Assembly (NCBI RefSeq): GCF_013167455.1
Contig: NZ_CP038328.1
DNA: 64,000 bases
Strand: one strand, 5' to 3'
Source of the DNA: Escherichia coli O157:H7
Lineage (GTDB): Bacteria > Pseudomonadota > Gammaproteobacteria > Enterobacterales > Enterobacteriaceae
The notes beneath the pieces were generated by a model. That model saw only the letters and a list, made by a program, of their open reading frames with translations. It searched no databases and was not told the DNA's origin. Position numbers and translations under genes: made by a program. Positions 15,939 through 56,785 of the stretch are shown one piece after another; positions within the stretch are counted from its first letter, which is position 1; each line of letters begins with the position of its first letter.

Positions 15939-15953
15939 CGCTGATTCTCCGGA

Positions 15954-44040: not shown

Positions 44041-45500
44041 TGAAAAAATTACTGCGTCTTTTTTTCCCGCTCTCGCTGCGGGTACGTTTTCTGTTGGCAA
44101 CGGCAGCGGTAGTACTGGTGCTTTCGCTTGCCTACGGAATGGTCGCGCTGATCGGTTATAGCGTCAGTTTCGATAAAACTACGTTTCGGCTGTTACGTGG
44201 CGAGAGCAATCTGTTCTATACCCTTGCGAAGTGGGAAAACAATAAGTTGCATGTCGAGTTACCCGAAAATATCGACAAGCAAAGCCCCACCATGACGCTA
44301 ATTTATGATGAGAACGGGCAGCTTTTATGGGCGCAACGTGACGTGCCCTGGCTGATGAAGATGATCCAGCCTGACTGGCTGAAATCGAATGGTTTTCATG
44401 AAATTGAAGCGGATGTTAACGATACCAGCCTCTTGCTGAGTGGAGATCATTCGATACAGCAACAGTTGCAGGAAGTGCGGGAAGATGATGACGACGCGGA
44501 GATGACCCACTCGGTGGCGGTAAACGTCTACCCGGCAACATCGCGGATGCCAAAGTTAACCATTGTGGTGGTGGATACCATTCCGGTGGAGCTAAAAAGT
44601 TCCTATATGGTCTGGAGCTGGTTTATCTATGTGCTCTCAGCCAATCTGCTGTTAGTGATCCCGCTGCTGTGGGTCGCCGCCTGGTGGAGTTTACGCCCCA
44701 TCGAAGCCCTGGCAAAAGAAGTCCGCGAACTGGAAGAACATAACCGCGAATTGCTCAATCCAGCCACAACGCGAGAACTGACCAGTCTGGTACGAAACCT
44801 GAACCGATTGTTAAAAAGTGAACGCGAACGTTACGACAAATATCGTACAACGCTCACCGACCTGACCCATAGTCTGAAAACGCCACTGGCGGTGCTGCAA
44901 AGTACGCTGCGTTCTCTACGTAGTGAAAAGATGAGCGTCAGTGATGCTGAACCGGTAATGCTGGAGCAAATCAGCCGCATTTCACAGCAAATTGGCTACT
45001 ACCTGCATCGTGCCAGTATGCACGGCGGGACATTGCTCAGCCGCGAGCTGCATCCGGTCGCCCCACTGCTGGACAATCTCACCTCGGCGCTGAACAAAGT
45101 GTATCAACGCAAAGGGGTCAATATCTCTCTCGATATTTCGCCAGAGATCAGCTTTGTCGGTGAGCAGAACGATTTTGTCGAGGTGATGGGCAATGTACTG
45201 GATAATGCCTGTAAATATTGCCTCGAGTTTGTCGAAATTTCTGCAAGGCAAACCGACGAGCATCTCTATATTGTGGTCGAGGATGATGGCCCCGGTATTC
45301 CATTAAGCAAGCGAGAGGTCATTTTCGACCGTGGTCAACGGGTTGATACTTTACGCCCTGGGCAAGGTGTGGGGCTGGCGGTAGCCCGCGAAATCACCAA
45401 GCAATATGAGGGTAAAATCGTCGCCGGAGAGAGCATGCTTGGCGGTGCGCGGATGGAGGTGATTTTTGGTCGCCAGCATTCTACGCCGAAAGATGAATAA
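44040..45500 (+). CDS. phoQ: Sensor histidine kinase PhoQ
   Basis: 486 aa, two TM segments, HisKA/HATPase. Confidence 0.97.
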
Positions 45501-45586
45501 ATATGTCCTTTTATCACCACAGCAAGGCAACCCATTGATTTAATTAAACAACCCACACTGCAAAAAGTGCTAAAAACAGCAAATTG

Positions 45587-45607
45587 ACTACACCATTAAC
45601 TACACCG
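45587..45607 (+). repeat. Satellite att direct repeat, left copy
   Basis: Identical 21-mer to 56564..56584; flanks also similar. Confidence 0.6.
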
Positions 45608-45990
45608 TTCGGTGCACTGTATGAAACAACGTGGAACAAATAGACACAAGAAATATACAGGCGGGTAATCTTTCCAGGGGGAAGCGCACCAATTCATGAG
45701 GGGCGTTAATGTCGATATGGGGATCCCCATAACGGGGCTACCGGATTTTTTTTCCGGTTAACTGTTAATCAGGCTGGTGGGTTTTACCTGTTCGGTAGGT
45801 GTTATGATTATCGTAATACCTTTCCCCCAGTGGGGTAAAAGCTCCAACCGTAACGATGTTCGTTGTGGTTGCCTTGATGGTCTGCGTGGTCATTATGACC
45901 ATTCAGAATATGAAGGGTGACGCTTCCGACTTCCTCAAATTGAGGTTTCCGAAAATATCAGCGGGTTAGCGATTAATCTGACCATTAATT

Positions 45991-46013
45991 AAACTACGAA
46001 AATTTCGTAGTTT
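45991..46013. other. Perfect palindrome AAACTACGAAAATTTCGTAGTTT
   Basis: Read in sequence, ~90 bp downstream of the last satellite ORF; possible terminator or operator. Confidence 0.4.
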
Positions 46014-46100
46014 GTGAATATATTCCGGCCTTCTGATTAACAGTCCTCAGATGTGAGGATGTAGCCAGCGCAATTTTGCGTTATCGGGAATATCAGCAAG

Positions 46101-46382
46101 TTACCGCCGCAGCCGTTCCGGCTTCTTCCAGTGGTACGTTATTTTTTCTTTCTCCCGATACAGTTCAACGCGGCGATTGTAGGCCAGCATTTCAAGAACG
46201 CGGTTCCGTATGTTGCGCATATCAACGCCATTAAGTTCTATACCATCACGGCGCATCACTTCCGCTACAACACGCACATAATTTTCAGCGGTCACGCTGT
46301 CCGGCTGTGTGGCCTGTTCGTCATGCTGCTGGCTGATTCCGGCGACGCGGCGGATTAATCCCAGTAGTTCGGCTTCTGTCAT
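46101..46382 (-). CDS. Hypothetical protein, satellite, cos-proximal
   Basis: 93 aa ORF starting just left of cos copy A. Confidence 0.4.
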   Translation of the reverse strand: MTEAELLGLIRRVAGISQQHDEQATQPDSVTAENYVRVVAEVMRRDGIELNGVDMRNIRNRVLEMLAYNRRVELYREKEKITYHWKKPERLRR

Positions 46383-46416
46383 TGTGCCCCCATCGCTCTG
46401 ATAGTCTGGTGTCGTC

Positions 46417-46464
46417 GGGTCCTTCCTGGAATTATGGCCCGTTACGGGGCGGCGACCTCGCGGT
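46417..46464 (+). repeat. Satellite cos copy A (cosN GGGCGGCGACCT at 46448..46459), followed by a lambda-cosB-like tract to ~46637
   Basis: 48-bp inverted repeat with 47309..47356; downstream TTTATGAGAATTTTCCGG resembles the lambda left end. Confidence 0.8.
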
Positions 46465-46637
46465 TTTTATCTGTTTATGAGAATTTTCCGGCAAAAGTCA
46501 GATCCGATCTTCTTCTCTGTAACAGACTGTTTAACAATGAAAATATTAAAAAAAGAAAGGATCTGACACGAGGCATTTTAGCCAGAAAATGCCATTATCA
46601 GATCCTTTCTCATTTTTGTTCAATAATTGCGCGTCTG

Positions 46638-47180
46638 TTACTCGCCTTTCTTCTGTAGCAACTTTTCCGGTACGTTTCCGGTTGTTTCTTTCAAGTAATC
46701 AGCCAGTATCTGTGGGAGGTTGTCGGCAACTCTGGCACTGGCATTACAGGCTTTAACCACTTCCCTTTTAAGCCTGTCCAGCATGGCGGGGGTAATCTGT
46801 GGGAAGCTCCTTTGCATAGTAAGCGGGAGGCTGTCCATGATTGATGAAATCTGACTCGCCAGCTTTGAAAGCGCGTACAGGCAAAACTCAGTATCAATCA
46901 CGTCACCGCGATCGCGATCGTTTTTAAGTTCCTGCGCCTCTGCCTGTGCTGTCAGTAATCTGATCCTGACTCGTAAAAGTTCATCATCGTCAATCTCGCC
47001 TTTGTCGTTTATAAGCTGGCTAATTGCATTGTTAACCCTATTTTCTATCACGCTGGCAACATCATAAAACGCCTCACGGCCTTTACGCTCAACGGGAGTT
47101 ACTCCCCACTTGTCGAACGCTGTCGCACTTACACGGCAGCTTTTCGCCATGTTTTTTTTGTTCATCAGATGAGATTTCAT
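46638..47180 (-). CDS. Terminase small subunit homologue (Nu1-like), satellite-encoded
   Basis: 180 aa; C-terminal region aligns with the prophage Nu1 in this window (LTAQAEAQELKNDRDRGDVIDTEFCLYALSKLASQISSIMDSLPLTMQRSFPQ vs LTRAQADAQELKNARDSAEVVETAFCTFVLSRIAGEIASILDGIPLSVQRRFPE). Confidence 0.75.
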   Translation of the reverse strand: MKSHLMNKKNMAKSCRVSATAFDKWGVTPVERKGREAFYDVASVIENRVNNAISQLINDKGEIDDDELLRVRIRLLTAQAEAQELKNDRDRGDVIDTEFCLYALSKLASQISSIMDSLPLTMQRSFPQITPAMLDRLKREVVKACNASARVADNLPQILADYLKETTGNVPEKLLQKKGE

Positions 47181-47308
47181 TAATACACCAACTTAATTAC
47201 TGCTTCAGGTTGGTGTATTGCTTGCATCTTTCCCTTTTCATTCATAAAGATAGATCAAACAACAAAACCACCACCACCACCCTGAAAAGGCTCATAAATA
47301 GCGAAAAT

Positions 47309-47356
47309 CCGCGAGGTCGCCGCCCCGTAACGGGCCATAATTCCAGGAAGGACCCG
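47309..47356 (-). repeat. Satellite cos copy B (cosN complement at 47314..47325), inverted relative to copy A
   Basis: Exact 48-bp reverse complement of 46417..46464; first 23 bp also identical to the prophage cos at 25631..25653. Confidence 0.8.
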
Positions 47357-47357
47357 T

Positions 47358-47379
47358 AAAAAAGCCGGATTTCTCCGGC
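47358..47379 (-). terminator. Intrinsic terminator, copy 1 of a repeated satellite hairpin
   Basis: AAAAAAGCCGGATTTCTCCGGC; on the minus strand a hairpin plus T6 just after the stop of 47386..47799. Confidence 0.55.
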
Positions 47380-47385
47380 CTTGTC

Positions 47386-47799
47386 TCAGATGGTTTTCAG
47401 TATGCGATCGATGTCGCCGTCATCGCCCTGGTTTCTGCCATCGTATGCCATGCCAGCTGATACGGCTTGCGGGCTGTGCATGTCCATAAAGTTTTCAAAG
47501 GCTGCGGTAAGTTCCGGCGCAACCTTCGGACGTTCCTGCTCTATGGTCATGCTAAGGATGCTTTTAGCCGTACCAACATCGATACAAGGCACGTTTGCCA
47601 TTGCACGCAACAGCGGCTGATAGTCTTTATGCTCATGAAGCGCCATAATCGCATCAGCGCACGGCTTGTCCTGCTCTTCCAGTTTGTTTAGTTGATATAC
47701 GGCCTCATAGGTTGATAAACCTCTGTCAGCCATTGCCCGCGCTTCGACTTTAAATTTACTCGCCAGCGGTAGCGTCATGATGCTTTCATTCGTTGCCAT
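47386..47799 (-). CDS. Hypothetical protein in the satellite capsid module
   Basis: 137 aa, downstream of the D-like gene. Confidence 0.4.
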   Translation of the reverse strand: MATNESIMTLPLASKFKVEARAMADRGLSTYEAVYQLNKLEEQDKPCADAIMALHEHKDYQPLLRAMANVPCIDVGTAKSILSMTIEQERPKVAPELTAAFENFMDMHSPQAVSAGMAYDGRNQGDDGDIDRILKTI

Positions 47800-47811
47800 C
47801 GTTCCCCCTGC

Positions 47812-48147
47812 TTATCGGGCCAGCGGCTGAACGGATACGCCGGAACCCGCAAAGGCGGCGCATTTTTTCGCATCGGTGTCGACGCTCTCAGGCCAGTTAA
47901 CGGCGGCAATATTGAATATCCCCGTCTTGTAACACTGTGCTGATTTCTGCTTTGACGTGTCCACAGGGTACGAGGTCAGATAAACAGCCTTGCCAGATTC
48001 CTGACCATCCCACGGCTTAAACTCGCCATTGTCTGCCAGCATCAGCGGGGTAAATTCCTGAATAACGCCAGCATCAGCGGCAAAATGTACCAACGTCGTG
48101 GATACCTGCTGACTGCCTGCAAATAACTCAATGTATGGAGTGTCCAT
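47812..48147 (-). CDS. Head decoration protein homologue (gpD-like), satellite-encoded
   Basis: 111 aa; C-terminus KKCAAFAGSGVSV vs prophage [15 protein letters not shown]. Confidence 0.65.
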   Translation of the reverse strand: MDTPYIELFAGSQQVSTTLVHFAADAGVIQEFTPLMLADNGEFKPWDGQESGKAVYLTSYPVDTSKQKSAQCYKTGIFNIAAVNWPESVDTDAKKCAAFAGSGVSVQPLAR

Positions 48148-48159
48148 AGAATCCCCCCG

Positions 48160-49215
48160 TTAACCAATTTTGACGGTAACAAATTTGCGAATATCTGCCG
48201 GTACCGGCTGCGGTGCACTGTGTGTCTGCACGTACTCAATCGCCGGATCGCCGTCCTCAATCCAGTTTTTCGGGTAAAACATGTTTTGTGTTGCGCCCGT
48301 TCTTACCGCTTCCTGATCCATTATCGCACCATAGGCCACCAGCCCTTTATTGTTGGTGTTACCCAGGACCAGCAAATCAGGCTCAAGGAAATATTTTTCG
48401 GTACCATCGCTGTCAGTGTATTTGCCGGAATAGACGATAAGGGCCAGATCACCAAGATAGCCTTTAAAGCTCACCACTTCGCCCAGGTTTTTACAGGCCA
48501 GTTCGGCGGCGGATTCTGAACCACGGGAAAGATCGTACAGCTCACGGAATTTTTTAAAGCTGCGTAATGTGCGCCATACCTCAGCGCCCATAATCATGAC
48601 GTTTGCGGGGCAACCAGCCTGATCAGCATAAAGCTCGATGTCATAGATTGGGTCGTGCATGTCTTTATCCTGCTCGGACCATTTTTTACCCTTGGCCTGC
48701 TCTATGATGCAGTTTTCCGGTATTTTCCAGTCGATTTCATAGCGTTCTATGCCTTCGCCCTCAATGATGTTTTTTCCGGTCGTTACCGCATTCACCGCCA
48801 GCCATTCCACGCGTGCCTTAATGGCGTTTATCTGGCGGCGCATGTTGCCAGTAATCAGGCGCATACGGCGATAGGTAGGGTCGTTAAGCTGTGCCGGATC
48901 TTCTCCAGCCATGCGCATGATGGTTTTCGTTGGATCGATTTCGTGCTTTGGCTTCATGTAGCCAGGTTTGATTGTGCTGGTTTCGTACCCTTTATCGCGC
49001 TGAACCTGGCTACCCACCATAGGCGAACAAAACGCCGACATGGTGACTTCTTCAATGTCCAGGGTATCCAGCATGATGTTTTGCGTGCTGAATGTCGCCA
49101 CGTTCGGGAAAAACAGCGTGGTAAACAGAGGGCTGAATTTAAAATCCGCAATATCCCCGCGATTCAGGTACATGAAAAGCTGGTTAGTGTTAAGTGCCGT
49201 TGCTTTGCCTGCCAT
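48160..49215 (-). CDS. Major capsid protein homologue (gpE-like), satellite-encoded
   Basis: 351 aa; alignable along its length with prophage gpE (e.g. KPGYMKPKHEIDP vs TPGYVKPKHEVNP; YPKNWIEDGDPAIEY vs YPKNWVTTGDPAREF). Confidence 0.85.
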   Translation of the reverse strand: MAGKATALNTNQLFMYLNRGDIADFKFSPLFTTLFFPNVATFSTQNIMLDTLDIEEVTMSAFCSPMVGSQVQRDKGYETSTIKPGYMKPKHEIDPTKTIMRMAGEDPAQLNDPTYRRMRLITGNMRRQINAIKARVEWLAVNAVTTGKNIIEGEGIERYEIDWKIPENCIIEQAKGKKWSEQDKDMHDPIYDIELYADQAGCPANVMIMGAEVWRTLRSFKKFRELYDLSRGSESAAELACKNLGEVVSFKGYLGDLALIVYSGKYTDSDGTEKYFLEPDLLVLGNTNNKGLVAYGAIMDQEAVRTGATQNMFYPKNWIEDGDPAIEYVQTHSAPQPVPADIRKFVTVKIG

Positions 49216-49454
49216 TATTCACCCCCATAATTTTTATGCATCCCAAGCGCCGCAAGTAAATAAGAGCGTACAAGTGAACCTATCGACGGCTCCGGCGTCA
49301 TCAGCGGATCCAGTCCAGCCGCAACGCCAGCTTCATAGTTTTTTTTGTGGCGCTGCTTGAGCACCTCCACGATTTCGGGGCTTATGTACACCGAAACACC
49401 GCTTTTTTTCTCTTCAGCCATAGTAAGAAATTCCTCTTCGACTAAAAAAATCAT
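49215..49454 (-). CDS. Hypothetical small protein upstream of the capsid gene
   Basis: 79 aa ORF, stop overlaps the capsid start; possible internal start at MAEEKK. Confidence 0.35.
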   Translation of the reverse strand: MIFLVEEEFLTMAEEKKSGVSVYISPEIVEVLKQRHKKNYEAGVAAGLDPLMTPEPSIGSLVRSYLLAALGMHKNYGGE

Positions 49455-49586
49455 AACTGGATGTTTATCCAGTCCTGATTATAATCAGAATTGCATTTTA
49501 TGCAATGATATTGAGTTATGTTGCAAATTATGAAATGATTATCCCGATCACGAACGCCAGTGCATCCAAAAACCTCATATGCAAAA

Positions 49587-49624
49587 GCCCGATAAGAACC
49601 CTCTGACCTTATCGGGCTTTTTTT
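49587..49624 (+). terminator. Plus-strand intrinsic terminator, convergent with the satellite operon
   Basis: GCCCGATAAG-n11-CTTATCGGGC followed by T7. Confidence 0.5.
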
Positions 49625-49630
49625 GGGCGC

Positions 49631-49652
49631 AAAAAAGCCGGATTGCTCCGGC
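49631..49652 (-). terminator. Intrinsic terminator, copy 2 of the repeated hairpin
   Basis: AAAAAAGCCGGATTGCTCCGGC just after the stop of 49673..49897. Confidence 0.55.
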
Positions 49653-49672
49653 TATGTGTGCTGTGTGCTGGC

Positions 49673-49897
49673 TCAGTCTCTGATCTCTTTCAGAAATTCT
49701 ATCAATGCATCTATCTGTTCAGGATTTACCGCCAGCATTTCACCGGATAGAGCACATCTCACAAAACCATGCTGATCCTTTTCAATCAGTGCGCCCGTCT
49801 CCAGGAATGCGCGGTAATCATTGATGCTCATCGTCTCCATGTTGTCAGCATGGTATTTATCACGCTGTTTTAATATCTCATCAAATTTCATCGGCAT
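49673..49897 (-). CDS. Hypothetical protein
   Basis: 74 aa ORF with its own terminator. Confidence 0.35.
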   Translation of the reverse strand: MPMKFDEILKQRDKYHADNMETMSINDYRAFLETGALIEKDQHGFVRCALSGEMLAVNPEQIDALIEFLKEIRD

Positions 49898-49993
49898 TGT
49901 TTTTTTCCTCTGTTGTGTCTGTTTGTTTCAGATAGTAACTATGCCTGACCGTGACGAAAACCCGGTAATGCGCCATACCGTTTCAACTGGTGC

Positions 49994-50016
49994 AAAAAAA
50001 GCCGGATTTCTCCGGC
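49994..50016 (-). terminator. Intrinsic terminator, copy 3 of the repeated hairpin
   Basis: AAAAAAAGCCGGATTTCTCCGGC just after the stop of 50024..50296. Confidence 0.55.
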
Positions 50017-50023
50017 TGTTTGA

Positions 50024-50296
50024 TTAGCTGTCCTGGTAATTGCGCCATATTTCATCACCAGCACCATCTATACCCATTTCGGCATAAGTGCGATCGACTG
50101 CCTTTTTCAGGTCTCCGAAATTATCCGGCGGCTCCGGTGCCCTCTGTGCCTTCCTTGAACATTCCAGCCGTCGCATCGTGATGTGATGCCGTTCCTTGTC
50201 TGTCTCCACCAGCTGCATGACTTCACCCCATCGCGCCGCCGCCCTCCGGTAAAAGCCTTTCGCCTCCAGTTCCTCCGCTATGCGGTCATGTACCAT
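50024..50296 (-). CDS. Small regulator, possibly PerC-family (family assignment tentative)
   Basis: 90 aa from MVHDRIAEELEAKGFYRRAAARWGEVM...; resemblance to PerC/Pch is from memory only. Confidence 0.35.
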   Translation of the reverse strand: MVHDRIAEELEAKGFYRRAAARWGEVMQLVETDKERHHITMRRLECSRKAQRAPEPPDNFGDLKKAVDRTYAEMGIDGAGDEIWRNYQDS

Positions 50297-50306
50297 CGTC
50301 ACCCCC

Positions 50307-50717
50307 TCAGAACGAAATATCATCACCGTAAGGGTCATCGCCTCCCGCTGGTGGCTGATTACCCTGTGTGCCTGTGGTTTTGCGTCTGTTCCCGCCTGGA
50401 CGTGCCGCGCGGGCACTGATTACGCTGTCTGCGATAACCTGCCAGCCCTGCCGCGTTTCTCCGTTCTGTCCGGTCCACTGGCTTACCTGCATCGTGCCGG
50501 ATACGCTGGCAACATCGCCTTTTTGATGTTTAGCCAGGAAGCCGGCCTGTTTGCCAAATGCGATGACCGATAACCATAACGTCGCCTGTCCGTCCTGTGC
50601 CTGGCTGCATGGCAAAGATACCGCCATACGCGCCAGCGTCATCGGTGTGCCCTTGCTGGTCTGTTTTACCTGCGGGTCGTCCACCAGCCGCCCGTAAGCG
50701 GCTATCTGTGCCGTCAT
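50307..50717 (-). CDS. ssb: Single-stranded DNA-binding protein
   Basis: 136 aa, Gly/Gln-rich linker and acidic C-terminal tail ...DDPYGDDISF. Confidence 0.75.
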   Translation of the reverse strand: MTAQIAAYGRLVDDPQVKQTSKGTPMTLARMAVSLPCSQAQDGQATLWLSVIAFGKQAGFLAKHQKGDVASVSGTMQVSQWTGQNGETRQGWQVIADSVISARAARPGGNRRKTTGTQGNQPPAGGDDPYGDDISF

Positions 50718-50995
50718 AATTCCACCTCTCCGGTTTTAACGTTGATGGTTGTTACCTGTTCCGCTTCGGCAATCTCCCGTTCTGTCAGCGTGGCAAAGTT
50801 TGCCGCCGCCGTGGTCATGAATGCGCTTATCAGGTCGGGATGTTCCTTCGCGTATCCTTCCCGCGTGTGGCGGTCTATCGTTCTGATTGCCACCTTTAAG
50901 GTGTGCTCAGTCATGTCTAACGCTTTATATTTTGGCTCTGTTCTGTCTCTGCGTTTTTGGGTCATTTCTCGCAACCTCTCACTTTTTCGCCTCAC
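50714..50995 (-). CDS. Hypothetical protein
   Basis: 93 aa ORF immediately downstream of the iteron region. Confidence 0.35.
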   Translation of the reverse strand: MRRKSERLREMTQKRRDRTEPKYKALDMTEHTLKVAIRTIDRHTREGYAKEHPDLISAFMTTAAANFATLTEREIAEAEQVTTINVKTGEVEL

Positions 50996-51167
50996 TTTTT
51001 CAAGCGTCTCACTTCGTCGCAGTTGGGATTTTCGGTTTTTCTATGTGTGTGTTTCATAAGTATTTTTTTACCCCTCACTTTTGAGGATGTATACAGGTCG
51101 AAAAGTGAGGGAGAGCGGGCTAATTTTGGCCCTCTTTCTATCCCCCTCGCTTTTGCTCCTCACTTTT
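50978..51167. repeat. Putative satellite replication origin: at least six CTCACTTTT-type iterons in both orientations
   Basis: Copies at 50978, 50991, 51008 (variant), 51074, 51101 (inverted), 51146 (variant), 51159; directly 3' of rep. Confidence 0.55.
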
Positions 51168-52566
51168 ATAGCGGCGCTACATCATCCCCATCGATACGAA
51201 TAACCCCATCTTTTTCCAGCTTGTACAGCCAGCGCCGGAAGTTTTTCATTTCATACCCCAGCTTTTTCATGTCATCACGTAACAGCGGGATCGTGCACTT
51301 GTCGCCGTTCTGTGTGCGTGAACGGATGCACCCCCATAGCGCGGTATGGTTTTCCGTCTTGTTCCCTGCCTCCTCGATGCGCTCCAGTTCAACAGGAGGG
51401 CGCGGATCATCCACCACCACCAGCGACGTGATTAATTCACCGTCAGCGTCGGTAAAAAGCTCCACCACGCGTAAGTCATATGCGGCTTCTTTGAGTTCCT
51501 CCGCGTCCTTCATTTTGGTGCATGAGATAACCAGCGCTTCGCTTCCTGCGTCCTCCCTGCGTATCCGGTATTCAGCATCCAGCGAAGCACGAAATGCACT
51601 GGAACCGCGCGCGCCTTTCGTCTCATCCTTGCCGGAATGGTGAACCACCAGCACCGTGGCCCCTGTGCGTCGTTTCAGTTCGTCACAACCACGGATAAAC
51701 GCCCCCATATCACGGGAATCATTTTCATCATTCCCACCAAAGCAACGCGCCAGCGTATCCAGAATAATCATGCGTACAGGTTTACCCGTTTCCCGCTCCA
51801 CCTGACGGGCAGCGATAACCATTTCATCAACATCAAGCGGGGCAGCCGGAAAGATGGGGCGGTTTACCAGATACAGATTTTTCACCTGCTCATCGTGCAC
51901 AACCTCCCAGGCTTTTACACGACGCGGAACACCTATACCGCCTTCACCAACCACATAGAGAACCGCACCATGTGCAACCCTGCGGCCTCCCCACTGGCGA
52001 CCAGTGGCAACATGGCACGCCCACGATCCGGCAAGGAATGATTTATAGGACCCGCTAGCCCCGTATATGCTGCATAGCGATACCGCCGGAATAATCCCCT
52101 TAACCACGTAATCCAGTTGCGTGTCGTATCCGGTAGATCCAACGCTCATCGGTAGCGTGGTTTTTCGCTGGTGGTTTTTTTCTTCCGCCGGCTCTTTCCC
52201 GCGCACCCGTTCCAGGTATTCGCGCCAGTTCTCCCGCATATGGCTGTGCATCCCTTCGGGGTAATAATTCGCATCAGTTACACCCGCCGCCGCCAGCTTG
52301 TGCGCAATGGCATTAATATTTGATGGCCTGATGTGGCCTGCCTTGTACAGCCGGACACAATAGCGCCCCTCGTCGATGATTCTCAGTTCTGCCAGTTCAT
52401 CCAGTTGATCATCAGCCAGCACAACGGGAGGCACATTATCGCCAGCCAGTCGCCCGTCCTGTTCCTGCCACTGTTTCGCATGTGCCCAGGCATCACTACC
52501 CGCAAAAATAATGACTTCGGTCATCTTGTCGTAAGGCTGTTTTTTTAAGTTCGGTGCGCTTTTCAT
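51166..52566 (-). CDS. Replication protein, RecA-fold P-loop ATPase (RepA/AAA_25-like helicase)
   Basis: 466 aa; Walker A-like GASGSYKS and Walker B-like RMIILDTLA; upstream of iterons. Confidence 0.65.
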   Translation of the reverse strand: MKSAPNLKKQPYDKMTEVIIFAGSDAWAHAKQWQEQDGRLAGDNVPPVVLADDQLDELAELRIIDEGRYCVRLYKAGHIRPSNINAIAHKLAAAGVTDANYYPEGMHSHMRENWREYLERVRGKEPAEEKNHQRKTTLPMSVGSTGYDTQLDYVVKGIIPAVSLCSIYGASGSYKSFLAGSWACHVATGRQWGGRRVAHGAVLYVVGEGGIGVPRRVKAWEVVHDEQVKNLYLVNRPIFPAAPLDVDEMVIAARQVERETGKPVRMIILDTLARCFGGNDENDSRDMGAFIRGCDELKRRTGATVLVVHHSGKDETKGARGSSAFRASLDAEYRIRREDAGSEALVISCTKMKDAEELKEAAYDLRVVELFTDADGELITSLVVVDDPRPPVELERIEEAGNKTENHTALWGCIRSRTQNGDKCTIPLLRDDMKKLGYEMKNFRRWLYKLEKDGVIRIDGDDVAPL

Positions 52567-52862
52567 TTCTTGCCCCTGAATCCGTTAACCATGGTTTTCA
52601 GCTTCTGGATGTTTGCCCGTGCCCTGGCGTTGCTGGTGGGCACGTTATGCGGCGCGGTCTGTACCAGAGAAAAATCACGCCGGAACTGATAAACAGGCAT
52701 CACGCAATCATATTCGTAACCTTCACGGCGGTAGGTTACGCGCCGTTCTTCCACGCCCTTAATCATTACCGTGCCGCCGTACTGGTCGCGGTAAATATCA
52801 CCGCGCGTAAATTTAGGGTGAGTGTTGCCACTGGCAGTTAAGCCAGAATATTTAAGTTTCAT
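52563..52862 (-). CDS. Hypothetical protein
   Basis: 99 aa, stop overlaps rep start. Confidence 0.35.
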   Translation of the reverse strand: MKLKYSGLTASGNTHPKFTRGDIYRDQYGGTVMIKGVEERRVTYRREGYEYDCVMPVYQFRRDFSLVQTAPHNVPTSNARARANIQKLKTMVNGFRGKK

Positions 52863-52867
52863 TATTT

Positions 52868-53101
52868 TTATTCTCCGGTGTGCTGTTCTTTATATCTGTC
52901 GTGCAATAGATCTATTTCTTGCAGTTCCATTATTACAGGCTCAAGAAGCGTTATTAATGCCGTGGCAATTCTTGATTTTTGTTTGTCGCGTTCATTGTCG
53001 CCAAGTGTTTCAAGCCATATGCGCAATATTTCCATCATGTTTTCACTGTGAGAAAGTGCAAGAAATGCGCGGTCTATTGTTTGGTGGTAAATATCACGCA
53101 T
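52868..53101 (-). CDS. Hypothetical protein
   Basis: 77 aa, tightly packed in the operon. Confidence 0.3.
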   Translation of the reverse strand: MRDIYHQTIDRAFLALSHSENMMEILRIWLETLGDNERDKQKSRIATALITLLEPVIMELQEIDLLHDRYKEQHTGE

Positions 53102-53558
53102 GGCTTACATCCTCAGGAAATTTTCTTCTATAACGCGCCTCTGCCACATATTCCGCATAATCGGCGGCGATATTCAGTACATCAAGCCCCGTTGATTTAT
53201 ATTCTCTCGTGGAAAGTAAGAAAAAAGCCGCTCTAATAAGTTCTGGCATTGACGAAAGCGCATCAGCCGCATCATCAGGAACGCCGGAAAATTCCTGTTT
53301 CAGGGAATTAAAACGATCATCACGCATAACCCCCCCATTTTCACAATCAGCAATCAGGATAGCTTTGGCCTCATTCAGCGCCGTATCAGCACTAAATTGC
53401 ATGACAGCCAGTGAGTGAGGAACGAAAGCACCGGCATATTCTGTTTCGCTGGTGGCGTGCTTATGTGCCCTGTCCGCGATAACAGAAATATCAATCAGCG
53501 CGTGCATCAGCGTTTTGATGGCTTCGGCGGCTGCGTCCGGTGTGGTTTTATTGTGCAT
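53094..53558 (-). CDS. Hypothetical protein
   Basis: 154 aa, overlapping neighbours on both sides. Confidence 0.4.
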   Translation of the reverse strand: MHNKTTPDAAAEAIKTLMHALIDISVIADRAHKHATSETEYAGAFVPHSLAVMQFSADTALNEAKAILIADCENGGVMRDDRFNSLKQEFSGVPDDAADALSSMPELIRAAFFLLSTREYKSTGLDVLNIAADYAEYVAEARYRRKFPEDVSHA

Positions 53559-53760
53559 AAAGCATCCCCTGAATATTCGTGTTAATCATTCCGGCACGTT
53601 TTGTGATTTCCTGTAATGATTCCCTTGTGGCGACAATTGCTTCATCTGGTAAGTGGTAATTACACACCACGCGACCTTTATCCACATTGACCAGTAGCTG
53701 CCCTGTGAATTTCTCACGAAACTGAATGCGGTTAAGGTCAGTAAGTGACAGATTAATCAT
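53548..53760 (-). CDS. Hypothetical protein
   Basis: 70 aa from MINLSLTDL...; RBS AGGAGG; ATGATTAA overlap with the upstream gene. Confidence 0.35.
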   Translation of the reverse strand: MINLSLTDLNRIQFREKFTGQLLVNVDKGRVVCNYHLPDEAIVATRESLQEITKRAGMINTNIQGMLYAQ

Positions 53761-53950
53761 GGCGCACCTCCTGACGAATACGGGCGGCAAATACAGCAAC
53801 ACAACCGGACGGGCAACGGTTACGCGCTTCGCGTTCCGTCCAGGCGGTTACGTGGATGATTTGAGATTCTCCGGCACTCAGTGCCAGAAAACGCCACACA
53901 AAGGCCGTTTGTGTGTGTACAAGGTGTGGTATATGATTTACGGCAACCAT
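53753..53950 (-). CDS. Hypothetical protein, first gene of the satellite leftward operon
   Basis: 65 aa from MVAVNHIPHL...; RBS GGAG 5 nt upstream. Confidence 0.35.
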   Translation of the reverse strand: MVAVNHIPHLVHTQTAFVWRFLALSAGESQIIHVTAWTEREARNRCPSGCVAVFAARIRQEVRHD

Positions 53951-54040
53951 AACGGCTCCTAGTTTACGTTGTTGGTTAGACGCCCCGTATGTGTTCCCAG
54001 CACTGCGGGGCGTTGATTTTTGTGTAATGGCAAGTACAAT

Positions 54041-54080
54041 GGTAATTACCATGTAGGTATAGCAATAAAGGGTAATTACC
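54041..54080. promoter_or_regulatory. Two perfect 10-bp palindromes GGTAATTACC, 30 bp apart, in the divergent control region
   Basis: Copies at 54041..54050 and 54071..54080, each followed by ATGT; the second abuts the RHH start codon. Confidence 0.5.
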
Positions 54081-54254
54081 ATGTCAACACCATTAGAAAA
54101 ACGTTCGCCTCCATACCAAATGCGATTACCGGAAGACTTCAGAGCGCAGCTAGAAGAAGCTGCTAAGGCCGATGGCGACACATCTTTAGCCACTTGGATT
54201 AAACGCGTTCTCCGCAAAGAATTACAGCAACGCGGCATAGAACCCAAAGGATAA
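54081..54254 (+). CDS. Ribbon-helix-helix (Arc/MetJ-like) DNA-binding protein
   Basis: 57 aa by manual translation (MSTPLEKRSPPYQMRLPEDFRAQLEEAAKADGDTSLATWIKRVLRKELQQRGIEPKG); below the ORF-track cutoff. Confidence 0.5.
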   Translation: MSTPLEKRSPPYQMRLPEDFRAQLEEAAKADGDTSLATWIKRVLRKELQQRGIEPKG

Positions 54255-54296
54255 AAACTATCAGCGCCGTGGTGTGAGGTATTACGGCGCATTGCT

Positions 54297-54485
54297 ATGC
54301 AGGACAACACAATGACCGATAAAGAATTGACCAAAACATTATCACCGGCACGGAAAAGACGGCGCAGAAAGATAGAGCATGAATCAGAAAGATTCGCGCC
54401 ATGTGCTTTTGCCCTTGAGCAATTCCTTAAAGAGTACAGGGAAACGCGCCCATTGCAGGTATGGCAACGAACTGAACCAGACTGA
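54297..54485 (+). CDS. Hypothetical small basic protein
   Basis: 62 aa with KRRRRK; downstream of the RHH gene, before the + strand terminator. Confidence 0.3.
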   Translation: MQDNTMTDKELTKTLSPARKRRRRKIEHESERFAPCAFALEQFLKEYRETRPLQVWQRTEPD

Positions 54486-54578
54486 TAGCATTGCCCACCA
54501 GCCTGATAGCGGCTATCATCCCCGTGCTTATGTTTGGGATCATATACACATAAGGCGCAGCGGGTTATCTGTTCAGAA

Positions 54579-54608
54579 AGGCGGCTCCATTTCGGGGCCG
54601 CTTTTTTT
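54579..54608 (+). terminator. Intrinsic terminator closing the RHH transcription unit
   Basis: GCGGCTCC-ATTTC-GGGGCCGC followed by T7. Confidence 0.5.
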
Positions 54609-54754
54609 ATGCCTGAAAAACCCCAATTTTGTGGTTTTCCAGTCTCACCAGGGCGAACGAATCCCCGCCCACGTTCTGGCGTATATTCAATCTTCATGGT
54701 TATAGCTCTGTGTTCAGATGATTGATGTGTGGCGGCTGTGTGCCGCCAGCGTGA

Positions 54755-54943
54755 TTAATGAACTGCCTTGCAGCTATCCTTCCAGGCCAGAACCTCGGAT
54801 AAAGACCAGCCAACGGAACGACCGCCAAGTTTACGACGTGATGGGAATTGTCCGGCCTTTTCCAGGCGGTAGCGACACGTACGGCTAAGGCCGGTTAGTT
54901 TTTCGCATTCTTTTTCACGTATAAACCGATCAGTGCTTAACAC
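54755..54943 (-). CDS. alpA: AlpA-family transcriptional regulator (excisionase-like)
   Basis: 62 aa; pattern ...LTGLSRTCRYRLEKAGQFP...GGRSVGWSLSEVLAW typical of AlpA. Confidence 0.75.
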   Translation of the reverse strand: MLSTDRFIREKECEKLTGLSRTCRYRLEKAGQFPSRRKLGGRSVGWSLSEVLAWKDSCKAVH

Positions 54944-55307
54944 TATTGCCCCCTTTCGTTTCTTAAAGAGTCATCAGGTGTCTTATTGTGTCGTATTGTT
55001 CCCGCTAGAGTGATGAATGGCAAATACTGAGGATGTATGATTTACAGAAAATGAAAAAGTAAGAATAAAATCTTTTAAATTCATGTTAATACAAAGGCAT
55101 AAAATATTGTTCCATGCCTTTTTTCTCGCTCTTTAAAGAGTGATTCGCTAGTGTATAAAAAACCAGTAACACATTAAAAATCAGCTACTTATAAATCCGT
55201 ACGCTTTTTCGCCTCTTGTTCGTAGTTGTTCCACATTGTTGCTCATTGTTGCACGTTGTATCTGTTCGCATATCCAGTATGCGCATACTGAAAAAACACG
55301 AAAAAAA

Positions 55308-56558
55308 TTATTTTCTTCTGGCTACTGGTAGCGTGGTTACGTTTTCATGTGTTCCCGCCAGTATCCCTAACCGCTCCGTCCACATATCCAGCGCATTGCG
55401 TTTCGCATCCAGATAACGGGAATGATTATAAACTCGCTGCATTCCTGGCATCTGGTGGCCTGTAAGCTGCTCCACGACATGCGGATCAACGCCTAAATCG
55501 TTCAGCATGGTTGTAAAGGTGCGCCGGATGTCATGCAGTGACCAGTGAGGGTGATTAAGCCTCCTGTGCGCTAATCTTCCATACTGCGATACGCTGGCCT
55601 CCTGTTTCACTTCCCCCAGCAATAAGCCCGTGTGCCTGTTCTGCTCCACCAGCTGCGTGATGAACGGCAGTATTGCTTCCGGTATAGGCCGGAATATGGC
55701 TACCTTCGTTTTGCTGTGCTCCTTCGGAACGGTCCAGAGCATTTCGGTAAAATCCCACTCGCTGATCTCCGATAACCTCAGTTCTACCGTCCGGCATCCG
55801 AACACAATCAGGAGGCGGATTAACGCGATGTAGTAGGGGGAGAATATTTTTTTGTCCAGTGCCTGCAATAATTCGCCCAGTTCTTTGGTGCTTAAGACAC
55901 GCTCGCTTATATCCGGTTTTTTCCCAACGTCCGCCACACTCATATCATCAAGAACGTTGCTGATTGCATAGCGCCGCCTCCGGCAGAACTTAAGCGCCTG
56001 TTTGCACGTCTGTAGCAAGAATCCGGCAGTAACAGGCGTTCGCTTTGCCACCTGGTCAAAACAGGCCAGCCAGTGCCGTAGCTCGCATTTATCCAGCGGC
56101 ATAGCACCAATGTGCTGTATTACGTGATTATTAAGGCGCTTTTTCAGGGCGGCATAATCCACGCGGTTTTCCTTTGCGTACGACTCAAGCCAGTAGGTGA
56201 GCGCATCGCCAACCGTTACCGGCTTTAACGCTTCCTGTACGGTGTAATTAAGCTCATGACGTGGATTTTTCCCCTCTGCCAGCCATGCGCGACACTGGGC
56301 GGCTTTTTCCCTGGCTGATTTCAGGCTCAGATCAGGATAATTTCCCAGCTTAATGCGTTCCGGTGGTGCCCCCCTTCCCGTTCCGGCCCTGTAAGTGAAA
56401 TACCAGGTTAAAAGGCCACTGGTTGAATGCCTGACGCTCAGGTTTCCACCGTCATTAAGAAAGGCTGTTTTTTGGGCGGGTGTGCCGTTGATTTTCCTCA
56501 GCTGTGTATCGCTCAGTTTGTTAAGTGCTCTGCTCATAATTTTGATTCCGGTCATCAC
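55308..56558 (-). CDS. int: Tyrosine integrase (P4/satellite-type)
   Basis: 416 aa; C-terminal catalytic residues; adjacent to the right att repeat. Confidence 0.9.
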   Translation of the reverse strand: MMTGIKIMSRALNKLSDTQLRKINGTPAQKTAFLNDGGNLSVRHSTSGLLTWYFTYRAGTGRGAPPERIKLGNYPDLSLKSAREKAAQCRAWLAEGKNPRHELNYTVQEALKPVTVGDALTYWLESYAKENRVDYAALKKRLNNHVIQHIGAMPLDKCELRHWLACFDQVAKRTPVTAGFLLQTCKQALKFCRRRRYAISNVLDDMSVADVGKKPDISERVLSTKELGELLQALDKKIFSPYYIALIRLLIVFGCRTVELRLSEISEWDFTEMLWTVPKEHSKTKVAIFRPIPEAILPFITQLVEQNRHTGLLLGEVKQEASVSQYGRLAHRRLNHPHWSLHDIRRTFTTMLNDLGVDPHVVEQLTGHQMPGMQRVYNHSRYLDAKRNALDMWTERLGILAGTHENVTTLPVARRK

Positions 56559-56563
56559 AATTA

Positions 56564-56584
56564 ACTACACCATTAACTACACCG
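56564..56584 (+). repeat. Satellite att direct repeat, right copy (preceded by a tandem ATTAACTACACC unit)
   Basis: Identical 21-mer to 45587..45607. Confidence 0.6.
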
Positions 56585-56785
56585 ATCGTTGCACAAAGGG
56601 CTACAACGTGAAACAAGCTGGAACAAGGAAAATCACAAATCTGTTTATAATCAAAAATATAATGAACAATCTGAAACATTATGAAACGGCAAAAAACACT
56701 AATTGATAAAATATGTCCATACTTCACGCATTACGTTAAGCATCCGTTATAATCGGTTGCAGATACCAGCCTGTGGATGCTTAAC

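What the first reader, a model, noticed from the sequence alone, without database searches (positions are those of the whole stretch)
45587..56584. ~11 kb phage-satellite (PICI-like) island between phoQ and roxA
The phoQ-roxA intergenic region carries an 11 kb element bounded by 21-bp direct repeats. It has a P4-type tyrosine integrase and AlpA at one end, a single compact leftward operon with a RecA-fold Rep ATPase, iterons and SSB, and a packaging module whose cos matches the lambdoid prophage 20 kb away. It lacks portal, protease, large terminase and tail genes, so it must parasitise a helper phage. This is the best candidate in the window for a not-yet-characterised system; whether this exact architecture is already described cannot be decided without a database search.
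Basis: partly seen in the sequence, partly recalled or inferred. Interest (0 to 1): 0.75.

Follow-up and report, generated by a model that had tools for sequence, protein, structure and literature searches.

The report
Known E. coli phage satellite (PICI)
The 11-kb island between phoQ and roxA is a real phage satellite, but it is 99.9% identical to the already catalogued E. coli PICI EcCIRM12579, so it is an ordinary member of a well-studied family whose only untested detail is that it carries its own small terminase instead of the Rpp protein of its characterised sibling.

Summary
The island is real and is a phage satellite, but it is not new. It is an 11,210-bp insertion (window 45509-56718) into the phoQ-roxA spacer, which is empty in K-12. 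It is 99.9% identical over its whole length to EcCIRM12579, a PICI listed in Table S1 of Fillol-Salom 2018 with the same att core (GGACATATTT).

Its gene set is integrase, AlpA, a replication initiator with an adjacent ori, capsid homologs and TerS. That is the SatelliteFinder "Type A" PICI, of which 97% were found in E. coli. The experimentally characterised EcCICFT073 sits at the same site, and its capsid-module proteins are 96-98% identical.

- The 21-bp repeats are internal and are probably integrase arm sites. They are not the boundaries.
- There are two inverted cos sites flanking terS, as in EcCICFT073.
- The neighbouring prophage shares only cosQ-cosN, not cosB specificity.
- Three terminators and two rightward ORFs interrupt the supposed single operon.

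In Sakai and EDL933 the same site holds a different element, the capsid-forming PICI EcCIEDL933 (Sp7).

The one uncharacterised aspect is a 0.8-kb cassette exactly between the cos arms. It encodes a mosaic Nu1-family TerS (N15-like DNA-binding domain, lambdoid-like tail) where EcCICFT073 has RppA.

The parts
45499..45508 (+). attL core AAATATGTCC, which overlaps the phoQ stop codon region
   Evidence: Junction comparison with the K-12 empty site. It is the reverse complement of the published att GGACATATTT of EcCICFT073 and EcCIRM12579.
45587..45607 (+). Probably integrase arm-type sites.
   Evidence: ACTACACC occurs only four times in the window, two at each island end and all on the + strand. 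The integrase has an Arm-DNA-bind_3 domain. The function is inferred.
46101..46382 (-). 93-aa conserved terminal gene of unknown function (phrog_1561)
   Evidence: It is 88% identical to the EcCICFT073 homolog. It is also present at the end of the Sakai cf-PICI Sp7, at 91.5% nt identity.
46416..46616 (+). cos copy B. cosQ and cosN (cohesive-end equivalent 46447-46458), then a lambda-architecture cosB: R3 at 46497-46514, R2 at 46550-46567, R1 at 46598-46616. The R sequence is of the GGATCTGA type. The site points rightward into the 3' end of terS.
   Evidence: (inverted repeats I6 and I16). The same R type sits upstream of TerS-TerL-portal in a lambdoid prophage of E. coli 1303. It corresponds positionally to the second EcCICFT073 cos.
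46638..47180 (-). terS, a 180-aa Nu1-family small terminase with mosaic ancestry
   Evidence: phrog_57, E 8e-53, full length. 35% identical to the prophage Nu1. Best phage hit is N15 gp1 at 44%. By domain: the DBD is 56% identical to N15 and 26-34% to lambda types. The core and C-terminus are 66% and 49% identical to the strain-1303 type.
47200..47356 (-). cos copy A, upstream of terS. cosQ and cosN (47325-47314), a (GGT)n run at 47280-47268, and a TTGTTGTTT motif at 47265-47257 that matches the mapped R3 of N15.
   Evidence: R3-N15 is at bp 48-60 according to Murialdo & Feiss. Copy A is conserved together with terS in L005, L006 and L007.
47355..47384 (-). Intrinsic-terminator hairpin T3, immediately upstream of cosQ of copy A
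   Evidence: Repeat family D2. The same hairpin is in EcCICFT073.
47386..47799 (-). 137-aa protein with weak similarity to the C-terminal (Nu3/scaffold) part of the lambda-type head protease
   Evidence: phrog_1999. phrog_53 positions 495-567 of 583, E 4.7e-9. No Pfam match. 96% identical to EcCICFT073 c1501.
47812..48147 (-). Head decoration protein homolog (lambda D-like)
   Evidence: phrog_49. 35% identical to the prophage D protein and 98% to EcCICFT073 c1500.
48160..49215 (-). Major capsid protein homolog (lambda E-like)
   Evidence: phrog_29, E 1.5e-107. 43% identical to the prophage E protein and 96.6% to EcCICFT073 c1499.
49628..50021 (-). Two further copies of the terminator hairpin (49628-49657 and 49992-50021), flanking a 74-aa ORF (49673-49897)
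50024..50296 (-). PerC-family regulator, homolog of PchE in Sakai Sp7
50307..50717 (-). Single-stranded DNA-binding protein
   Evidence: phrog_44. TIGR00621 above its cut-off.
50978..51165 (-). Replication origin: six AAGTGAG iterons around an A+T-rich stretch, directly 3' of rep
   Evidence: The position matches the PICI ori rule stated in Fillol-Salom 2018.
51166..52566 (-). Replication initiator/helicase, RepA family (AAA_25)
   Evidence: Pfam AAA_25, E 5e-43. phrog_2850 matched end to end. It replaces the primase of EcCICFT073.
52563..52862 (-). RgdR homolog: DUF4222, 99 aa, RGD at residues 20-22
   Evidence: Translation. Annotation. RgdR/ECs1581 is described in Flockhart 2012. 78% nt identity to the Sakai copy.
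52868..53950 (-). Four small genes, including an Icd-like protein (53753-53950)
54081..54485 (+). Two unannotated rightward small ORFs. 54081-54254 is Arc-like ribbon-helix-helix. 54312-54485 is 96% identical to CFT073 C_RS30800.
   Evidence: They overlap a RefSeq 'Icd-like pseudogene'.
54755..54943 (-). alpA, the AlpA-type activator/excisionase-family HTH
   Evidence: phrog_2790 and phrog_66. The role of AlpA was shown in EcCICFT073.
55308..56537 (-). P4-type tyrosine integrase
   Evidence: Pfam. phrog_1. Same protein accession as in EcCIRM12579.
56564..56584 (+). Right internal repeat, two copies of ACTACACC
56709..56718 (+). attR core AAATATGTCC

Best explanation
This is a classical (non-capsid-forming) E. 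coli phage-inducible chromosomal island. It is the EcCIRM12579 allele of the EcCICFT073 family, integrated at the roxA(ycfD)-phoQ att site.

Proposed life cycle:
1. Integration and excision. A P4-type tyrosine integrase recombines at the 10-bp core AAATATGTCC. The boundaries are shown here. Use of the ACTACACC repeats as arm sites is inferred.
2. Induction. A lambdoid helper switches on alpA. AlpA then activates the leftward genes, leading to excision and replication. This was shown for EcCICFT073 and EcCIEDL933 and is inferred for this island.
3. Replication. The RepA-type AAA_25 initiator acts on the AAGTGAG iterons directly 3' of its gene, with the island's own SSB. The anatomy is shown; the function is inferred.
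4. Packaging is cos-type. The island keeps helper-compatible cosQ and cosN but has its own cosB. EcCICFT073 uses RppA to retarget the helper TerS. This island instead encodes a complete Nu1-family TerS. Its N15-like DNA-binding domain should bind the N15-like R3 motif of cos copy A. Its lambdoid-like C-terminal tail should recruit the helper's large terminase. That would divert the helper's TerL, portal, procapsids and tails to island concatemers. All of this step is inferred.
5. The second, inverted cos (copy B) carries a full R3/R2/R1 set of a lambdoid specificity class. It probably allows packaging by the unmodified terminase of such a phage, as the non-essential cos2 does in EcCICFT073. 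This is inferred.
6. The E-like, D-like and Nu3-like capsid homologs have no known role. Deleting c1499 or c1500 in EcCICFT073 changed neither transfer nor interference.
7. RgdR and PerC homologs are host-regulatory cargo.
For: Identity:
- 99.9% nt identity over 11,402 nt to EcCIRM12579, with identical protein accessions for Int, AlpA, RgdR, MCP, Dec, TerS and p93.
- Same att core and same locus as listed in Table S1 of Fillol-Salom 2018.
- All five SatelliteFinder PICI core components are present, with no forbidden head-tail, terL, tail or lysis genes.
- The backbone is 82-97% identical to EcCICFT073, in the same gene order at the same site.

Life-cycle steps known from relatives:
- Dependence on alpA, int and pri-rep, two functional cos sites, and mobilisation by lambda and phi80.
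- The Rpp mechanism.

TerS model:
- Full-length Nu1-family match with no similarity to RppA.
- The C-terminal TerL-binding region, which Rpp proteins lack, is retained.
- The DBD is 56% identical to N15 gp1, against 26-34% to lambda types.
- Copy A shares TTGTTGTTT with the mapped R3 of N15.
- Copy A and terS are co-inherited in islands at three att sites, while copy B is absent, truncated or of another R type.
- Homology with EcCICFT073 breaks exactly at the inner edges of the 76-nt inverted cos arms.
- The TerS cassette is found in 765 of 5426 complete E. coli genomes.
Against: - No experiment on this allele was found. 'EcCIRM12579' occurs in no main text of the searched library.
- The published excision, replication and packaging data for the O157 element at this site concern the different cf-PICI allele of Sakai/EDL933.
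- The proposed R3 motif lies about 9 bp further from cosN than in N15, and R3-cosN spacing is reported to be critical in lambda.
- L007 has a TerS C-terminus identical to this one but a different copy-B R type. So copy B and the TerS tail are not strictly co-adapted.
- No O157 genome in the collection carries a prophage with the copy-B cosB type, so the natural helper is unknown.
- Most of the 362 genomes that carry the whole island are O157-lineage, which is compatible with vertical inheritance alone.
Confidence: 0.85

Rival explanations
1. The island TerS works like Rpp. It heterodimerises with the helper's TerS, blocks recognition of the phage cos, and needs the helper TerS to bring in TerL.
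For: It occupies exactly the rppA position between the two cos arms. Both proteins have Nu1-like winged-helix domains. The central oligomerisation region is 52-66% identical to lambdoid TerS, so mixed oligomers are conceivable.
Against: It has no detectable sequence similarity to RppA or to RppC in the PDB. It is full length and keeps a conserved C-terminal region equivalent to the TerL-binding domain, which Rpp proteins lack.
Confidence: 0.2
2. It is an inert, decaying cryptic element (the older 'degraded P4/lambdoid chimera' reading) that is inherited only vertically in the O55/O157 lineage.
For: No direct mobility data exist for this allele. RefSeq marks one Icd-like pseudogene. Most full-length copies are in O157-type genomes.
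Against: All core ORFs are intact and match their families end to end. The att, ori and both cosN sites are intact. The same modules recur at other att sites with other integrases, which argues for ongoing mobility of the family. The sibling EcCICFT073 transfers at high frequency.
Confidence: 0.08
3. It is a capsid-forming PICI or a P4-like satellite.
For: It encodes an MCP, a decoration protein and a TerS. Its Int, AlpA and Icd-like genes resemble P4 functions.
Against: It has no terL, portal, protease, head-tail adaptor or connector, which are the features that define cf-PICIs. It has no psu, delta, sid, epsilon or alpha primase, and its cos is lambda type.
Confidence: 0.02

Closest known systems
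EcCIRM12579 (E. coli O55:H7 RM12579; Table S1 of Fillol-Salom et al. 2018, ISME J)
   Same: 99.9% nt identity over the whole island. Same att core, same locus, same 11.2-kb size and the same proteins.
   Different: A few point differences. One small-ORF region (window about 53094-53558) is organised slightly differently. It has been catalogued but, as far as the searched library shows, not studied experimentally.
EcCICFT073 (prototype Gram-negative PICI)
   Same: Same att site and gene order. Int, AlpA, RgdR, SSB, PerC, MCP, Dec, p137 and p93 are homologous, at 88-98% protein identity for the MCP, Dec, p137 and p93 proteins compared. It also has two inverted cosQ-cosN arms.
   Different: Its replication module is a primase rather than the RepA-helicase. 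Between the cos arms it carries RppA (144 aa) with its own cosB, instead of a 180-aa TerS with an N15-like cosB plus a lambda-architecture cosB.
EcCIEDL933 = Sp7 (Sakai) = CP-933C / O-island 51 (EDL933), the prototype capsid-forming PICI
   Same: Same att site. The int-alpA region is 94% identical, SSB-PerC/PchE-p74 is 94% identical, and the terminal p93 gene is 91.5% identical. It also has an RgdR homolog.
   Different: It is 15.5 kb and has a complete HK97-type head and packaging module (MCP, protease, portal, adaptor, TerS, TerL) and a primase. It steals only tails. The published excision/packaging results and OI-51 deletion phenotypes belong to that allele, not to this one.
SaPI TerS-type hijacking (SaPI1/SaPIbov1 TerS, as summarised in the cf-PICI preprint)
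   Same: In concept, a satellite-encoded small terminase pairs with the helper's large terminase and recognises a satellite-specific packaging site (introduction).
   Different: SaPIs use pac/headful packaging, have an unrelated TerS family, and have a separate Ppi protein to block the phage TerS. This island is a cos system and no Ppi equivalent was identified.
Phage N15 cos/gp1
   Same: It is the closest phage TerS (44% overall, 56% in the DBD). It shares the TTGTTGTTT R3 motif, and its cosB has no lambda-type R2/R1.
   Different: The motif is displaced by about 9 bp by a (GGT)n run. The TerS C-terminal half is closer to a lambdoid (strain-1303-type) TerS than to N15.
Satellite phage P4
   Same: P4-type integrase, a Vis/AlpA-type regulator, an Icd-like gene, about 11 kb in size, helper-dependent cos packaging.
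   Different: It has no psu-delta-sid, epsilon or alpha. The cos and the capsid homologs are lambda type, not P2 type. Fillol-Salom 2018 argue that the two groups evolved independently.

Membership tests
PICI (SatelliteFinder model; de Sousa et al. 2023) | Integrase | tested here: met
   Pfam Arm-DNA-bind_3 + Phage_int_M + Phage_integrase.
PICI (SatelliteFinder model; de Sousa et al. 2023) | Regulator homologous to AlpA, MerR or Stl | tested here: met
   phrog_2790 and phrog_66 excisionase/transcriptional regulator. Same protein accession as in EcCIRM12579.
PICI (SatelliteFinder model; de Sousa et al. 2023) | Primase-replicase module | tested here: met
   AAA_25 RepA-type initiator with adjacent iterons. 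It is a helicase-type rather than a primase-type allele. Whether it hits one of SatelliteFinder's five profiles was not run.
PICI (SatelliteFinder model; de Sousa et al. 2023) | Capsid morphogenesis gene | tested here: met
   MCP phrog_29 and decoration phrog_49.
PICI (SatelliteFinder model; de Sousa et al. 2023) | Small terminase | tested here: met
   phrog_57, E 8e-53.
PICI (SatelliteFinder model; de Sousa et al. 2023) | Absence of other phage structural or lysis genes (terL, head-tail connector/adaptor, tail, holin) | tested here: met
   None found in the RefSeq annotation or in PHROG scans of all ORFs.
PICI (Fillol-Salom 2018 criteria) | A specific att site not used by prophages; size about 10-15 kb; ori immediately 3' of rep | tested here: met
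   att GGACATATTT at ycfD-phoQ, as listed for PICIs. Size 11.2 kb. Iterons directly 3' of rep.
PICI (Fillol-Salom 2018 criteria) | Helper-phage-dependent induction, replication, packaging and high-frequency transfer; interference with the helper | not testable with these tools
   Shown for EcCICFT073, not for this allele.
Rpp-type E. coli PICI | Encodes an Rpp protein (about 135-153 aa, lacking the TerL-binding tail) | tested here: not met
   BLASTP of the island TerS against RppA finds nothing. No PDB hit to RppC. The protein is 180 aa and has a conserved C-terminal tail.
Capsid-forming PICI (cf-PICI) | terL, portal, prohead protease, head-tail adaptor and connector | tested here: not met
   Absent here. 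Present in the Sakai allele at the same site.
P4-like satellite | psu-delta-sid operon, epsilon/ash, alpha primase-helicase | tested here: not met
   No ORF matches such families in PHROGs. Only Int, an AlpA-type regulator and an Icd-like gene are shared.

The most novel reading that the evidence does not exclude
TerS-type classical PICIs may be a mechanistically distinct branch from the Rpp paradigm, and a commoner one. Three parts to the reading:
1. A mosaic Nu1-family TerS (N15-type DNA-binding domain fused to a lambdoid-type oligomerisation and TerL-binding half) takes the helper's TerL directly to an island-specific, N15-like cosB, bypassing the helper TerS.
2. The DBD and cos copy A stay fixed, while the TerS tail and a second, inverted, helper-type cos diversify to match different helpers.
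3. The whole specificity cassette is exchanged between islands by recombination at the inverted cosQ-cosN arms.
Probability: 0.4. Interest if true: 0.4.

Novelty: already known. Interest (0 to 1): 0.2.

Why it matters
As a discovery it matters little. The element is a catalogued PICI of a well-described family. Its regulatory cargo (RgdR and PerC/Pch homologs) is already linked to LEE/T3S control in EHEC.

Two points have practical value:
1. O157:H7 lineages carry different satellites at the OI-51 site: a classical PICI in TW14359, EC4115 and others, and the cf-PICI EcCIEDL933 in Sakai and EDL933. Results obtained on one allele (packaging of Sp7, OI-51 deletion phenotypes) should not be transferred to the other.
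2. The mechanistic model for classical E. coli PICIs rests on Rpp. The TerS cassette seen here is found in 765 of 5426 complete genomes, against 269 for the RppA cassette, and appears untested. RppB and RppC were not counted, so this is not a full comparison.

Tried and rejected
- I first equated the island with Sakai Sp7 / CP-933C / OI-51 on the basis of shared location and RgdR. I withdrew this after reading the Sakai record. Sp7 is a 15.5-kb cf-PICI that shares only the int-alpA, SSB-PerC and p93 segments.
- The 21-bp direct repeat as att is rejected by the K-12 junction comparison.
- The adjacent prophage as cognate helper is rejected as unsupported. Its R-elements differ from both island cos sites. 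It lacks cI/cro and has a truncated O gene. The Sakai prophage that fits this description, Sp8, was not inducible.
- The idea that terS is really Rpp found no sequence support.
- A PDB sequence search with TerS gave only chance hits.
- NCBIfam gave nothing for TerS, MCP, Dec, p137 or AlpA. Pfam gave nothing for p137.
- The phage collection holds no close relative of the island TerS (best 44%) and no full match to copy B.
- A coordinate conversion from TW14359 to the window failed for the prophage genes because of a frame offset. I redid the comparison from window ORFs.
- Strict co-variation of the copy-B R type with the TerS C-terminus is contradicted by L007.
- Base composition shows no marked anomaly across the island.

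Full report
**1. What is there**

The window is E. coli O157:H7 DNA. The region is 100% identical to TW14359, EC4115, SS52 and many others. All main ORFs between phoQ (44040-45500, +) and roxA (56777-57907, +) lie on the minus strand. K-12 derivatives have phoQ and roxA separated by a 75-bp spacer, so the block is an insertion.

Comparing both junctions with K-12 shows that K-12-like sequence ends at 45508 and resumes at 56709. A 10-bp duplicated core, AAATATGTCC, is at 45499-45508 and 56709-56718. The inserted DNA is therefore 45509-56718, which is 11,210 bp. The core is the reverse complement of GGACATATTT, the att published for EcCICFT073 and EcCIRM12579 at ycfD-phoQ.

Each copy is a pair of ACTACACC octamers. 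This octamer occurs nowhere else in the 64-kb window. Because the integrase has an arm-binding domain, I read these as arm-type sites. That reading is an inference.

**2. Gene content**

From the roxA end the island carries:
- A P4-type tyrosine integrase: Arm-DNA-bind_3, Phage_int_M and Phage_integrase.
- An AlpA-type HTH.
- Icd-like and small hypothetical genes.
- A 99-aa DUF4222 protein with RGD at residues 20-22, which is a homolog of RgdR/ECs1581.
- A 466-aa RepA-family AAA_25 ATPase that matches phrog_2850 end to end.
- Six AAGTGAG iterons within 180 bp directly 3' of that gene, as many as in all the rest of the window.
- An SSB and a PerC-family regulator.
- A lambda-E-like major capsid protein, 43% identical to the neighbouring prophage's E.
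- A D-like decoration protein, 35% identical to the prophage's D.
- A 137-aa protein with weak similarity to the Nu3/scaffold end of lambda-type head proteases.
- A 180-aa Nu1-family small terminase.
- A conserved 93-aa gene.

No portal, protease, large terminase, tail or lysis gene is present.

**3. cos**

The 16-mer GGGCGGCGACCTCGCG occurs three times in the window against 0.03 expected. One copy is in the icd-integrated lambda-like prophage (25647, -) and two are in the island (46447 + and 47325 -).

The two island copies are the cores of a 76-nt, 91% inverted repeat that brackets terS.
- Copy A lies upstream of terS and is co-oriented with it. It shares cosQ and cosN with the prophage and then diverges completely.
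- Copy B lies downstream of terS and points back into it. It also has a lambda-architecture cosB with three R-like elements, at 46497-46514, 46550-46567 and 46598-46616.
- The copy-B R sequence is of the GGATCTGA type. The prophage has GGAAACGACAG.

So "cos matches the prophage 20 kb away" holds only for cosQ-cosN. The prophage has a complete lambda-type head and tail set, but it lacks cI/cro and its O gene is truncated. It fits the description of Sakai Sp8, which did not circularise, replicate or package. That equation is inferred, not tested. I found no support for it as the helper.

**4. Identity**

- *EcCICFT073.* The prototype Gram-negative PICI sits at the same att site with the same gene order. 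The backbone is 82-97% identical at the nucleotide level. Its MCP (c1499), Dec (c1500) and 137-aa protein are 96-98% identical to those here. It has the same pair of inverted cos arms, published as cos1 and cos2, and both are functional.
- *EcCIRM12579.* Table S1 of Fillol-Salom 2018 also lists this element (O55:H7, ycfD-phoQ, 11.2 kb, same att). The window island is 99.9% identical to it over 11,402 nt, and most proteins share RefSeq accessions.
- *SatelliteFinder class.* The PICI model has five core components: integrase, regulator, primase-replicase, capsid morphogenesis and small terminase. Elements with all five (Type A; 375 found) were 97% from E. coli. The island has all five and none of the forbidden components.

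The element and its architecture are therefore already known.

**5. A correction worth recording**

I first took the island for Sakai Sp7 / EDL933 CP-933C / O-island 51, which the literature places between ycfD and phoQ. The sizes did not fit (15.5 kb, annotated "HNH; terL"), and Asadulghani scored Sp7 as having portal, head and packaging genes.

The Sakai record shows that Sp7 is a different allele. It is a 15.46-kb capsid-forming PICI with HK97-type MCP, protease, portal, adaptor, TerS, TerL and a primase. This is the EcCIEDL933 type. It shares with the window island only:
- int-alpA-Icd, at 94%;
- RgdR, at 78%;
- SSB-PerC/PchE-p74, at 94%;
- the terminal p93 gene, at 91.5%.

Hence the published excision, replication and packaging of Sp7 and the OI-51 deletion phenotypes were obtained on the cf-PICI allele, not on this element.

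**6. What differs from the characterised sibling**

Against EcCICFT073 there are two module swaps.
- *Replication.* A RepA-helicase replaces the primase.
- *Packaging.* The 0.8 kb lying exactly between the inner edges of the inverted cos arms (46492-47280) has no homology. EcCICFT073 has rppA there, encoding 144 aa. This island has terS.

The TerS shows no similarity to RppA or to anything in the PDB. It is a full-length Nu1-family protein (phrog_57, E 8e-53) and is 35% identical to the prophage Nu1 over its whole length. No phage in the collection has a close relative; the best is N15 gp1 at 44%.

Identity by domain shows a mosaic:

| Region of island TerS | N15 gp1 | Strain-1303 lambdoid TerS | Prophage Nu1 |
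|---|---|---|---|
| DNA-binding domain (1-50) | 56% | 26% | 34% |
| Core (76-125) | 48% | 66% | 52% |
| C-terminus (126-166) | 32% | 49% | 32% |

Copy A shares TTGTTGTTT with N15 exactly where R3-N15 was mapped, at bp 48-60. In the island the motif is displaced by about 9 bp by a (GGT)n run.

TerS-type islands occur at three or more att sites with different integrases and replication modules.
- In these islands terS and copy A are conserved together, and the DBD is 94-98% identical.
- Copy B is absent (L005), truncated to cosQ plus half of cosN (L006), or has another R type (L007).
- The copy-B R type of this island is found, co-oriented, upstream of TerS-TerL-portal in a lambdoid prophage of E. 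coli 1303. It is found in no prophage of O157 genomes.
- The TerS cassette is in 765 of 5426 complete genomes and the RppA cassette in 269. RppB and RppC were not counted.

**7. Mechanism**

The steps shown in relatives are these. The helper activates alpA. AlpA activates the island genes. int and pri-rep are needed. Packaging is cos-dependent and uses helper virion proteins. The capsid homologs c1499 and c1500 are dispensable for transfer and interference.

For this allele I infer the same cycle with one change. The island's own TerS binds copy A through its N15-like domain and brings in the helper's TerL through its lambdoid-like tail. Rpp proteins lack that tail. Copy B would serve as a secondary, helper-type cos.

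The main rival is an Rpp-like dependence on the helper TerS. The decisive experiment is island transfer from a helper that lacks its own terS.

Weak points of the model:
- There is no experiment on this allele.
- The R3 motif is shifted by 9 bp, and R3-cosN spacing matters in lambda.
- The copy-B type and the TerS tail are not strictly coupled, as L007 shows.
- The helper is unknown.

**8. Other structure**

The "single leftward operon" is interrupted by three copies of one intrinsic-terminator hairpin on the minus strand, at 47355-47384, 49628-49657 and 49992-50021.

Two rightward small ORFs overlap a RefSeq "Icd-like pseudogene":
- 54081-54254 is Arc-like, E 1.5e-6.
- 54312-54485 is 96% identical to an annotated CFT073 gene.

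**9. Verdict**

The element is a known, catalogued PICI of a well-studied family, so interest is low. The residual novelty is the untested TerS-type packaging cassette.

Noticed in passing
window 45509-56718, compared with L011 (Sakai) 1212-16672: Within O157:H7 the same att site holds two different satellites. TW14359, EC4115 and others have a classical PICI. Sakai and EDL933 have the cf-PICI EcCIEDL933/Sp7. The two share int-alpA, SSB-PerC and the terminal p93 gene but have entirely different replication and morphogenesis modules.
   Followed up: partly
window 47355-47384, 49628-49657, 49992-50021 (- strand): Three 80-87% identical copies of one intrinsic-terminator hairpin (GCCGGA..TCCGGC followed by a T run) lie inside the leftward gene array. 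One sits directly before cosQ of copy A. This suggests antitermination or separate transcription units.
   Followed up: no
window 55216-55260 (-), 45625-45639 (+), 56602-56626 (+): AACAAnnnnnAACAA-type repeats phased at 10 bp lie upstream of alpA and near both island ends. They are candidate binding sites for AlpA or an excision factor.
   Followed up: no
window 54081-54254 (+) and 54312-54485 (+): Two unannotated rightward small ORFs lie opposite to the main gene direction. One is Arc-like ribbon-helix-helix (phrog_228, E 1.5e-6). The other is 96% identical to CFT073 C_RS30800. They overlap a 314-aa minus-strand ORF that RefSeq calls an Icd-like pseudogene. Related islands have a YlcI/YnfO gene at this position.
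   Followed up: partly
window 47268-47280 (-), compared with L004 10612-10623: The copy-A cosB contains GTGGTGGTGGTGG. EcCICFT073's upstream cos has the inverse complement, CACCACCACCAC, a few bp further from cosN. The length of the GGT run varies among islands (L005, L006, L007).
   Followed up: no
L006 8990-9020: In E. coli MEW the second cos is reduced to cosQ plus the left half of cosN and is fused directly to the terS stop codon. This looks like a natural deletion of cosB and half of cosN.
   Followed up: no
L004 11150-11309 (-): EcCICFT073's downstream cos carries three ATGTCCGG-type repeats arranged like R3/R2/R1. The original paper reported finding no phage-type cosB in the island.
   Followed up: no
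window about 2500-37300 (prophage at icd): The lambda-like prophage has a complete Nu1-A-W-B-C-D-E-FI head and tail set. It has no cI/cro, a truncated O gene and a frameshifted recombinase. It carries emrE (an SMR efflux gene), bor and lom as cargo.
   Followed up: no
window 45509-46100: About 590 bp at the phoQ-proximal end of the island contain no convincing ORF.
   Followed up: no
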